In this document: positions 19,055-19,215 of the stretch, in pieces | Numbering within the stretch: the stretch's first letter is position 1 | How the letters are laid out: every line of letters starts with the position of its first letter | Source: a virus | DNA: 64,000 bases | IMG/VR virus record: IMGVR_UViG_3300042691_007361 | Span: 1-64,000 of that record | Strand: one strand, 5' to 3' | Made by a program: the position numbers and the translations under genes | Notes under the pieces: generated by a model | Database searches by the model: none | Told to the model about the DNA's origin: nothing | Seen by the model: only the letters and a program-made list of their open reading frames with translations

Positions 19055-19106
19055 GGGCTACTACAGCAATATTTACTTTTATAGGAAATAAAGAAACAGT
19101 AGCCCG
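19055..19106 (+). ncRNA. Stem-MCAGCA RNA repeat 2
   Basis: GGGCUACU-ACAGCAA...AGUAGCCC-G. Confidence 0.7.
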
Positions 19107-19215
19107 TTTAATGCACCATTCCTGATTCCCAAGGTCAGGCAGTTGTAATAGGTCAAGTCGTGGTACCTGTAAGTGTGTCAAATCCACCACTATTACAATT
19201 GAGTGCAGAGGGGAC
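19106..19215 (+). ncRNA. Twister self-cleaving ribozyme (type P1 with a P5 stem)
   Basis: GUU-U^AA-UGCA-CC...P4 CCUGA-UUCCCAAGG-UCAGG; P5 CAGUUGUAAUAG/CUAUUACAAUUG; UGCA-GAGGG-GAC; T1 CCC/GGG and compensatory T2 CC/GG; P1 only 3 bp. Confidence 0.78.

What the first reader, a model, noticed from the sequence alone, without database searches (positions are those of the whole stretch)
19106..19215. Twister ribozyme placed to cut exactly at the 3' end of repeat 2
The twister core is intact, with a compensatory CC/GG in T2 (usually GC/GC) and a long P5 carrying a 38-nt insert. The predicted U19109^A19110 cut leaves repeat 2 ending ...AGUAGCCC-GUUU with a 2',3'-cyclic phosphate, so the terminal G of the repeat is also the first P1 base. 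That overlap implies the two elements are functionally coupled.
Basis: partly seen in the sequence, partly recalled or inferred. Interest (0 to 1): 0.75.

Follow-up and report, generated by a model that had tools for sequence, protein, structure and literature searches.

The report
Phage twister ribozyme ending a small RNA
A real but unannotated twister self-cleaving ribozyme sits directly after a small hairpin RNA upstream of a phage Ro60-like gene, so its cut would set that RNA's 3' end; this gives a testable job to a ribozyme class whose role in phages is unknown.

Summary
Window 19106-19215 (+) has every sequence and pairing feature of a type-P1 twister with a long P5. The predicted cut is U19109^A19110. 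Rfam does not report it, even at E<=10. It belongs to a family of at least 120 near-identical cores in uncultured phage contigs. In that family P1, P4, the base of P5 and the T1 pseudoknot all show compensatory changes. A generic twister descriptor hits the window once and hits 200 shuffles never.

The hairpin just upstream ("repeat 2") is one of four stem-CAGCA-loop-stem-G units. Such units are 27-fold enriched upstream of this gene family, whose model folds like Ro60.

The claimed specific coupling is only partly supported. The unit-twister pair is kept in about 12 close relatives, but two lack the twister and two carry a hammerhead nearby. Only 8 of 120 family twisters follow such a unit; most follow other hairpins or precede ORFs.

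Best reading: a generic cutting module that here trims a candidate Ro60-partner RNA. Cleavage itself is untested. Earlier notes of this scan described the same twister family on other phage DNA.

The parts
19106..19215 (+). Predicted twister ribozyme, type P1 with P5
   Evidence: Descriptor: 1 hit in the window against 0 in 200 shuffles. Family alignment A1: 91.6% of cells paired, against 33-45% when the partners are slid. The MFE fold reproduces P1/P2/P4/P5.
19109..19110 (+). Predicted scissile bond U19109^A19110. A19110 stands at the general-acid position.
   Evidence: Position relative to P1 and P2. A19110 and A19111 are invariant in 41/41 aligned relatives. Residue roles are taken from PMC11662667. 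Cleavage was not tested.
19106..19108 (+). P1 5' strand (pairs with 19213-19215). G19106 is also the invariant G that ends repeat 2.
   Evidence: All 4 P1 pairs covary in the family. The window has GUU/GAC where its orthologues have GGU/GCC, a compensatory change.
19213..19215 (+). P1 3' strand
   Evidence: As for the 5' strand.
19112..19115 (+). P2 5' strand (pairs with 19204-19207)
   Evidence: 100% paired but essentially invariant in the family, so uninformative.
19204..19207 (+). P2 3' strand
19116..19117 (+). T2 pseudoknot, CC (pairs with G19133, G19134)
   Evidence: Complementary, but invariant in the family because the scan pattern fixed it. No covariation test was possible.
19121..19139 (+). 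P4 hairpin (19121-25 with 19135-39) with loop L4, UUCCCAAGG
   Evidence: 5 of 5 pairs covary and 100% of cells are paired.
19128..19130 (+). T1 pseudoknot, CCC (pairs with G19210-G19212)
   Evidence: Family variants CCA/UGG (3 instances) and CAC/GUG (2 instances) are exact compensatory doubles, against 111 CCC/GGG.
19140..19201 (+). P5: 12-nt arms (11 of 12 complementary) with a 38-nt interior
   Evidence: the repeat finder I11. 6 of the 10 base pairs counted covary. The sequence between the conserved halves varies from 32 to 177 nt in the family.
19208..19212 (+). L1 3' strand, GAGGG. G19208 stands at the general-base position.
   Evidence: G19208 is conserved in at least 90% and the rest is nearly invariant. 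Roles are from PMC11662667.
19055..19106 (+). Repeat 2 (unit U2): 8-bp stem 19055-62 with 19098-105, CAGCA at 19064-68, invariant G19106
   Evidence: Alignment A3. In 24 of 26 units the stem ends directly before the invariant G. The U2 stem abuts P1 with no spacer.
18991..19048 (+). Unit U1 of the same family
19228..19282 (+). Unit U3
19297..19403 (+). Unit U4, with a large structured insert; stem 19297-304 with 19395-402, G19403
   Evidence: This is the most conserved part of the orthologous region. RNA-library contigs of 4 studies end at 19403-19406.
18602..18670 (+). Pistol ribozyme, predicted G18665^U18666 cut
   Evidence: Rfam RF02679, 42.8 bits against gathering score 34.5. The G-U cleavage site is from PMC5408937.
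18666..19109 (+). RNA predicted to be released by the two ribozymes (444 nt, 5'-OH and 2',3'-cyclic phosphate)
   Evidence: Inferred from the two predicted cut sites only. Nothing was observed.
19487..20872 (+). Ro60-like gene (DUF2828 + DUF7788/vWA)
   Evidence: Pfam. AlphaFold model with pLDDT 84. The 13 best PDB matches are all Ro60/TROVE chains, E 1e-8 to 1e-4.

Best explanation
Window 19106-19215 encodes a twister self-cleaving ribozyme (type P1, extended P5). It belongs to a large phage-borne subfamily that Rfam does not detect. I infer that it is transcribed as part of a roughly 900-nt non-coding array, in this order: pistol ribozyme, structured elements, CAGCA-hairpin units U1 and U2, twister, U3 and U4. 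The array leads into a Ro60-like gene. I predict that it cuts between U19109 and A19110. The cut would leave unit U2 ending stem-G-UUU with a 2',3'-cyclic phosphate. The ribozyme would remain as a folded 5'-OH leader on the downstream RNA (U3, U4 and the Ro60-like mRNA). In this subfamily the twister acts as portable punctuation placed just 3' of a stable hairpin. Here that hairpin is a candidate partner RNA of the Ro60-like protein, so the ribozyme would make that RNA's 3' end without any host nuclease. What is shown: the sequence features, the covariation, the conserved adjacency in relatives, the association of units with the gene, and the Ro60-like fold. What is inferred: co-transcription, cleavage, the end chemistry and any binding to the protein.
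For: Twister anatomy can be read directly from the sequence. The descriptor hits once, against 0 in 200 shuffles. At least 120 related cores were found. Covariation is seen in P4 (5/5 pairs), P1 (4/4) and the P5 base (6/10); 91.6% of cells pair, against 33-45% when slid. T1 shows compensatory doubles, CCA/UGG and CAC/GUG. The positions of the catalytic A and G are conserved. P1 is dispensable and P5 is well tolerated in tested twisters. Hairpins are enriched just upstream of family twisters: stems of 8 bp or more in 44% against 17% of random sites, MFE p=1e-10. The U2-twister adjacency is kept in about 12 relatives, including ones with a compensated T1. Other ribozyme classes occur in the same arrays: pistol here, hatchet in L034 and L043, and hammerhead-like elements in L014 and L018. 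CAGCA units are 27-fold enriched upstream of the gene, in 25 of 31 loci, p=1e-36. The protein model matches Ro60 structures. RNA-library contigs from 4 studies end at G19403 plus 0-3 nt. That is the same stem-G-short-tail geometry in unit U4, and it is only a weak hint.
Against: The Rfam twister models give no match, even at E<=10. The folding energy of the ribozyme alone is not unusual (z -0.96). T2 and P2 never vary in the sample, so they are untested. The twister is missing or degraded in some relatives that keep the units (L001, L002/L003, L006/L009). Only one orthologous CAGCA unit is ever followed by a twister. In high-throughput assays an upstream P0 hairpin lowered cleavage on average. 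No read or contig shows an RNA end at 19109/19110. No promoter or terminator call constrains the transcript.
Confidence: 0.7

Rival explanations
1. The downstream product is what matters. The twister detaches the U3-U4-Ro60-like mRNA from the upstream RNA and leaves it with a 5'-OH and a compact folded leader, which would change its stability or translation. Its position next to repeat 2 is then an inherited accident. This partly overlaps with the best explanation.
For: 42 of 115 family twisters have a same-strand ORF start within 100 nt downstream (control 20%), and 63 of 115 within 200 nt. Many lie in obvious 5' leaders of conserved ORFs. Only 8 of 120 follow a CAGCA unit. The literature has proposed processing of polycistronic transcripts (PMC6765202).
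Against: In the window the gene start is 271 nt downstream, with two more RNA units in between. Upstream hairpins are significantly enriched next to the cut site. The P1 5' strand lies in the short tail of the hairpin across orthologues.
Confidence: 0.3
2. Pistol (cut at 18665/18666) and twister (cut at 19109/19110) together release a 444-nt RNA. A host RtcB ligase then joins its 5'-OH and 2',3'-cyclic phosphate ends into a circle.
For: The pistol cuts near its own 3' end and the type-P1 twister cuts at its own 5' end, so the excised RNA would carry almost no ribozyme sequence. The end chemistry is that of RtcB substrates (established knowledge).
Against: No RtcB is encoded in the 106.8-kb genome, estimated 89% complete. 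No contig joins 19109 to 18666, though contigs are weak evidence. The close relatives scanned showed no pistol at gathering score; they have a hatchet, a hammerhead-like element or nothing there, so this pairing is not conserved.
Confidence: 0.1
3. The element is a twister-derived fold that no longer cleaves efficiently, or cleaves only conditionally. Possible causes are inhibition by the abutting hairpin or a requirement for a bound factor on the long P5.
For: P0 hairpins lowered the mean cleaved fraction from 0.85 to 0.40 in a large assay. The variable part of P5 differs widely in length and sequence between relatives. Rfam gives no hit.
Against: Both catalytic positions and both pseudoknots are intact. 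They are maintained by compensatory changes in more than 100 phages. Every tested twister with a P5 cleaved above 0.8.
Confidence: 0.1

Closest known systems
Twister ribozyme, type P1 with optional P0 and P5 (Roth et al. 2014; Rfam RF03160)
   Same: The order of elements is the same: P1, N^AA, P2, T2, P4 with a CCCAA-containing loop, P5, the P2 return strand, GAGGG, and the P1 return strand. Two pseudoknots are present, the positions of the catalytic A and G match, P1 is short, and a hairpin lies directly upstream. The setting is a phage, close to other self-cleaving ribozymes.
   Different: Rfam does not detect it at any threshold tried. From my memory of the O. sativa sequence, T2 reads CC/GG where that twister has GC/GC. 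The base of P5 is conserved in sequence, and the sequence between the conserved halves varies from 32 to 177 nt. Self-cleavage was not tested.
Ro60 with Y RNAs in bacteria and phages (YrlA/YrlB, Chen et al. 2014, PMC4201824; phage phiLo Ro60 with Yrl1/2, PMC12135203)
   Same: Small structured RNAs are encoded on the same strand just upstream of a Ro60-fold protein gene (HEAT ring plus vWA). Each RNA has a terminal stem formed by its 5' and 3' ends.
   Different: The protein is DUF2828/DUF7788 and does not match Pfam TROVE. The RNAs carry CAGCA after the stem plus a 3' G, not the GNCGAA motif, and Rfam found no YrlA-like match. No ribozyme-made ends are mentioned in the passages of those papers that I read. 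Binding was not tested.
Ribozyme-flanked release of RNAs with RtcB-ligatable ends (engineered twister-flanked circular RNA expression)
   Same: The upstream ribozyme cuts at its 3' side and the downstream type-P1 twister cuts at its 5' side. The released RNA would have a 5'-OH and a 2',3'-cyclic phosphate.
   Different: This is a natural locus. The upstream ribozyme is a pistol. No ligase is encoded by the phage, and no junction was seen.

Membership tests
Twister ribozyme (type P1) | Nested helices P1, P2 and P4 in the canonical order, with the ends of the RNA in P1 | tested here: met
   Read from the sequence. The MFE fold reproduces them. P4 covaries in 5/5 pairs and P1 in 4/4. P2 is 100% paired but invariant.
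Twister ribozyme (type P1) | Pseudoknot T1 between the L4 CCC and the L1 3'-strand GGG | tested here: met
   C19128-30 pairs with G19210-12. Family variants CCA/UGG (3) and CAC/GUG (2) are compensatory.
Twister ribozyme (type P1) | Two-base-pair pseudoknot T2 between L2 and L4 | tested here: inconclusive
   C19116, C19117 and G19133, G19134 are complementary. They never vary in the sample, which was collected with a pattern that fixed them. My attempt at a relaxed search failed.
Twister ribozyme (type P1) | Conserved core nucleotides: N^AA after P1, G-A after P2, AA in L4 | tested here: met
   U19109, A19110, A19111, G19208, A19209, A19131 and A19132 are present. They are invariant or at least 90% conserved in 41 relatives.
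Twister ribozyme (type P1) | Match to the Rfam covariance model RF03160 at its gathering score (67.2 bits) | tested here: not met
   No match at gathering score or at E<=10 in the window, in the whole genome or in short-P5 relatives. None of at least 22 family members in 104 kb was found. The model cannot score pseudoknots, and the P5 insert separates the two conserved halves. This is a detection criterion, not a structural one.
Twister ribozyme (type P1) | Site-specific self-cleavage giving a 2',3'-cyclic phosphate and a 5'-OH | not testable with these tools
   The RNA-library contigs laid on the region show no ends at 19109/19110 and could not show them.
Ro60 / Y RNA ribonucleoprotein | Protein with a TROVE-type HEAT ring plus a vWA domain | tested here: met
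   The model (pLDDT 84, pTM 0.85) has Ro60 chains as its 13 best PDB matches over the full length, TM 0.35-0.60. The Pfam scan listed only DUF2828 and DUF7788, with no TROVE match at E<=0.01. A PDB sequence search found nothing.
Ro60 / Y RNA ribonucleoprotein | Partner RNA with the Ro-binding motif (GNCGAA or a bulged helix), bound by the protein | tested here: not met
   The units have CAGCA plus a 3' G in its place. Rfam gave no Y RNA or YrlA match at E<=10. Binding cannot be tested here. Only the gene association is shown.

The most novel reading that the evidence does not exclude
The twister is the dedicated maturation device of a new class of Ro60-partner RNAs. Its cut gives unit U2 a defined stem-G-UUU tail ending in a 2',3'-cyclic phosphate, which the Ro60-like ring or a host repair or decay enzyme recognises. 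On this reading the long-unexplained sharing of gene neighbourhoods by twister, hammerhead, pistol and hatchet ribozymes in phages reflects processing of such ribonucleoprotein RNAs.
Probability: 0.2. Interest if true: 0.8.

Novelty: new member of a known kind. Interest (0 to 1): 0.55.

Why it matters
Reviews state that the biological role of twister ribozymes in bacteria and phages is unknown, and that their shared gene neighbourhood with hammerheads is unexplained (PMC6765202). The role of the upstream P0 hairpin is also called unclear (PMC11662667). This locus offers a concrete case in which P0 is itself a recognisable small RNA, linked by position to a Ro60-like protein gene. Relatives carry four different ribozyme classes in the same array. 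That makes "ribozymes as nuclease-free end-makers for phage small RNAs" directly testable with a short transcript, two point mutants and end-specific RNA sequencing. It also shows that a family of more than 100 twisters escapes Rfam annotation.

Tried and rejected
- **Rfam.** Searches at gathering score and at E<=10 on the window, the whole genome, short-P5 relatives and 104 kb of family loci reported no twister.
- **Phage GenBank collection.** blastn of 18500-19500 found no match.
- **PDB.** A sequence search with the protein found no match.
- **Metatranscriptome contigs of 4 runs.** No contig bridges or ends at 19109/19110, and none joins 19109 to 18666. Most pieces are relatives' conserved cores, so this says nothing either way. 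Only the ends at 19403-19406 are a weak hint.
- **RNAalifold on the unit alignment A3.** It predicted no pairs, because the stems sit in shifted registers relative to CAGCA. I resolved this with a per-sequence stem search.
- **Regex for T2 covariation.** It failed for technical reasons: a non-greedy match picked the wrong 3' half.
- **Promoter and terminator scan.** No more hits than in shuffles.
- **RtcB.** Absent from the phage genome.
- **Folding-energy z-score of the ribozyme alone.** Not significant (-0.96).
- **Chance match.** Rejected by the shuffles and the covariation.
- **Twister-sister, or the type-P3 and type-P5 permutations.** Rejected because the order of the elements is P1-open.

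Full report
**Setting.** The window is part of a 106.8-kb uncultured virus record. A stretch of about 900 nt without a credible ORF (18591-19486) separates a small ORF (18234-18590) from a 461-aa gene at 19487-20872. Rfam at gathering score reports one element in the whole window, a pistol ribozyme at 18602-18670 (42.8 bits against a gathering score of 34.5). ARAGORN finds no tRNA.

**Is the twister there?** Read directly from the sequence, 19106-19215 has the complete order of a type-P1 twister:
- P1: G19106-U19108 with G19213-C19215.
- Cleavage dinucleotide U19109^A19110, followed by A19111.
- P2: 19112-15 with 19204-07.
- A two-base T2 (C19116, C19117 with G19134, G19133).
- P4: 19121-25 with 19135-39, closing the loop UUCCCAAGG.
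- T1: C19128-30 with G19210-12.
- P5: a 62-nt hairpin at 19140-19201, with 12-nt arms and 38 nt between them.
- G19208-A19209 after the P2 return strand.

The residue-by-residue mapping onto the O. sativa twister rests on my memory of that sequence. The functional roles of the first nucleotide after the cut (general acid) and the first nucleotide after P2 (general base) come from PMC11662667.

A generic descriptor encoding only these rules matches the window once, at exactly these coordinates. It matches 200 dinucleotide shuffles, both strands, not at all. ViennaRNA's minimum-energy fold reproduces P1, P2, P4 and P5, but the energy is not exceptional (z -0.96). The support therefore comes from comparison with relatives, not from thermodynamics.

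**Rfam is negative.** No twister model matches at gathering score or at E<=10 in the region, in the whole genome (RF03160), or in relatives whose P5 is only 35-41 nt. None of at least 22 family members in 104 kb of related loci is found. I treat this as a limit of detection: covariance models cannot score the two pseudoknots, and the P5 insert separates the conserved halves. It is recorded as a failed criterion in the membership table.

**The family.**
- I parsed 120 unique instances, 115 of them with a recognisable 3' half. The core is almost identical in all. The sequence between the conserved halves varies from 32 to 177 nt.
- On a 41-sequence alignment (A1) the structure I specified pairs 91.6% of cells, against 33-45% when the 3' partners are slid by 1-3 columns. 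All five P4 pairs and all four P1 pairs show changes on both sides, as do six of the ten P5-base pairs. P2, T1 and T2 are invariant in that sample.
- A relaxed search then found T1 variants: CCA with UGG (three instances in different P4 backgrounds) and CAC with GUG (two instances). Each is an exact compensatory double change, against 111 CCC/GGG. Two of these variants sit in the orthologous position next to the repeat (L004/L005/L034 and L010).
- Within P1, the window has GUU/GAC where its orthologues have GGU/GCC, again a compensatory change.
- A19110 and A19111 are invariant, and G19208 is conserved in at least 90%.
- The own genome holds only this one copy.

**Would it cleave?** This was not tested. 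A 3-bp P1 is not a serious objection. P1 can be deleted with near wild-type rates (PMC5408937). In a survey of about 1,900 natural twisters, P1 imperfections and P1 length had no effect, and all twisters with a P5 cleaved above 0.8 (PMC11662667). That survey also found that an upstream P0 hairpin lowered mean cleavage from 0.85 to 0.40. The abutting hairpin here could therefore slow the reaction.

**Repeat 2 and the shared G.**
- Four units lie in the region: 18991-19048, 19055-19106, 19228-19282 and 19297-19403. Each has an 8-9 bp stem, then 0-2 nt, then CAGCA, a variable A/U-rich loop (a large structured insert in the fourth), and the return strand.
- Aligning 26 such units from this and related loci, CAGCA and one G after the stem are the only invariant columns. 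In 24 of 26 units the stem ends directly before that G.
The unit stem and P1 abut with no spacer.
- The predicted cut lies three nucleotides after the invariant G. In the orthologues the tail is G-GUU instead of G-UUU.

**What the units are.**
- The downstream protein matches Pfam DUF2828 and DUF7788.
- Its AlphaFold model (pLDDT 84, pTM 0.85) has Ro60/TROVE structures as its 13 best PDB matches over the full length. These include the Ro60 of Thermus phage phiLo (E 1e-8 to 1e-4, TM 0.35-0.60).
- Using a fixed definition, units are 27-fold denser in the 700 nt upstream of the gene, on the same strand, than elsewhere in 31 non-redundant loci (44 against 26; p=1e-36). They are present in 25 of 31 loci, including relatives with only 36-45% protein identity.
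- This is the arrangement known for Ro60 and Y RNAs in bacteria and phages (PMC4201824; PMC12135203), although the RNA motif differs.
- They are therefore candidate partner RNAs. Binding was not tested.

**Is the twister specifically coupled to repeat 2?** Only in part.
- An alignment of the orthologous upstream regions shows the unit-twister pair kept in the window, L004, L005, L007, L008, L010, L011/L012, L013, L015, L016 and L034.
- In L002/L003 the unit joins the fourth unit directly and no twister is present.
- L001 lacks both the unit and the twister. L006 and L009 have lost the 5' half of the ribozyme.
- L014 and L018 carry a hammerhead-like element with an intact CUGAUGA...GAAA core (RAGATH-1 hammerhead, 32.6 and 35.5 bits, below the gathering score of 56.3).
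- Across the whole family, only 8 of 120 twisters follow a CAGCA unit, and all 8 are this same orthologous unit.
- The others follow different, recurrent hairpins, some with covarying stems. One of these is the structured element that in the window lies at about 18902-18988 (L074, L120, L154).
- Stable hairpins ending within 8 nt of the cut are enriched: stems of 8 bp or more in 44% against 17% of random positions, with lower folding energy (p=1e-10).
- Downstream, 37% have a same-strand ORF start within 100 nt (control 20%). The median distance to an upstream ORF end is 218 nt.

The general picture is a portable cutting module placed just after a hairpin, often at the boundary between a non-coding stretch and the next gene. 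The hairpin corresponds to the optional P0 of the published twister consensus, whose role is described as unclear.

**Other ribozymes in the same arrays.** There is a pistol here, a hatchet about 1.25 kb upstream of the gene in L034 and near two twisters in L043, and the hammerhead-like elements above. This matches the published observation that these classes share genomic neighbourhoods for unknown reasons (PMC6765202; PMC4604425). It argues that cleavage itself is what is selected, not any one fold.

**Expression.** Contigs from four freshwater and riverine RNA libraries (four studies) cover parts of the region. Two match 19152-19403 and 19238-19406 without any difference. In all four, a whole contig ends at 19403-19406, which is the invariant G of unit 4 plus 0-3 nt. 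That is the same geometry the twister would give unit 2, but contig ends are only a weak hint. Nothing informative covers 19109/19110, and DNA carry-over cannot be excluded.

**Mechanism proposed.** A transcript running through the array is cut by the pistol at 18665/18666 and by the twister at 19109/19110. The short P1 then melts. This releases an upstream RNA whose 3' end is unit 2 with a G-UUU tail and a 2',3'-cyclic phosphate. The ribozyme stays on the 5' end of the downstream RNA. Whether the important product is the upstream small RNA, the downstream RNA or a ligated circle is open. The phage encodes no RtcB, and no promoter or terminator call helps.

**Verdict.** This is a well-supported new member of the twister class, from a subfamily that current annotation misses, in an informative context. 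The specific claim of coupling to the repeat is plausible but not demonstrated. Earlier notes of this scan described the same twister family and the same RNA units on other phage DNA, and my tests agree with them.

Noticed in passing
window 18602-18670: Pistol ribozyme above the Rfam gathering score (42.8 against 34.5 bits), directly after the ORF that ends at 18590. The predicted G18665^U18666 cut lies 444 nt upstream of the twister cut.
   Followed up: partly
L014:2084-2163, L018:2066-2151: Relatives with 70-72% identical Ro60-like proteins carry a hammerhead-like element (RAGATH-1 hammerhead, 32.6 and 35.5 bits, below the gathering score of 56.3) in the same upstream array. In L018 it directly follows a twister-like 3' half.
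   Followed up: partly
L034:1087-1248, L043:6387-6553: Hatchet ribozymes (about 79 bits) lie in the same non-coding neighbourhoods as family twisters. In L034 the hatchet is 1.25 kb upstream of the Ro60-like gene.
   Followed up: no
window 18991-19048, 19228-19282; L034:2002-2057: The CAGCA units give weak matches to the Rfam model of Dictyostelium Class I RNAs (21.1, 19.9 and 29.0 bits; gathering score 41.5). The architecture is alike: a short terminal stem, a conserved ...ACAGCAA motif right after the 5' arm, a variable A/U-rich middle and CUG after the 3' arm (PMC7919456). This may be convergence or chance. That paper reports the class as confined to dictyostelids.
   Followed up: partly
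window 19297-19460: Unit 4, with its embedded hairpins, and the following long stem (about 19356-19364 with 19445-19455, enclosing three hairpins in a cloverleaf-like layout) form the most conserved part of the upstream region in all close relatives. ARAGORN and Rfam do not call it a tRNA.
   Followed up: partly
window 18902-18988; L074, L120, L154: The structured element just before unit 1 (9-bp closing stem) recurs in other phages. There it is followed within 2-5 nt by a family twister, so RNA modules and the twister appear to be shuffled between phages.
   Followed up: partly
L051:9205-9535: Two family twisters lie back to back, 1 nt apart. L063 and L126 have a partial second 5' core right after the first ribozyme.
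   Followed up: no
L020-L030, L035 (upstream of the gene): Distant homologues of the Ro60-like gene (36-44% identity) sit next to arrays of tRNA genes, with CAGCA units between the tRNAs and the gene.
   Followed up: no
twister-family loci, e.g. L043, L067, L088, L149: Many family twisters are followed by a conserved A/T-rich leader (recurring TTAACTTA-like words) and then a conserved ORF beginning MKNLSTKGLSMSQAQ...
   Followed up: no
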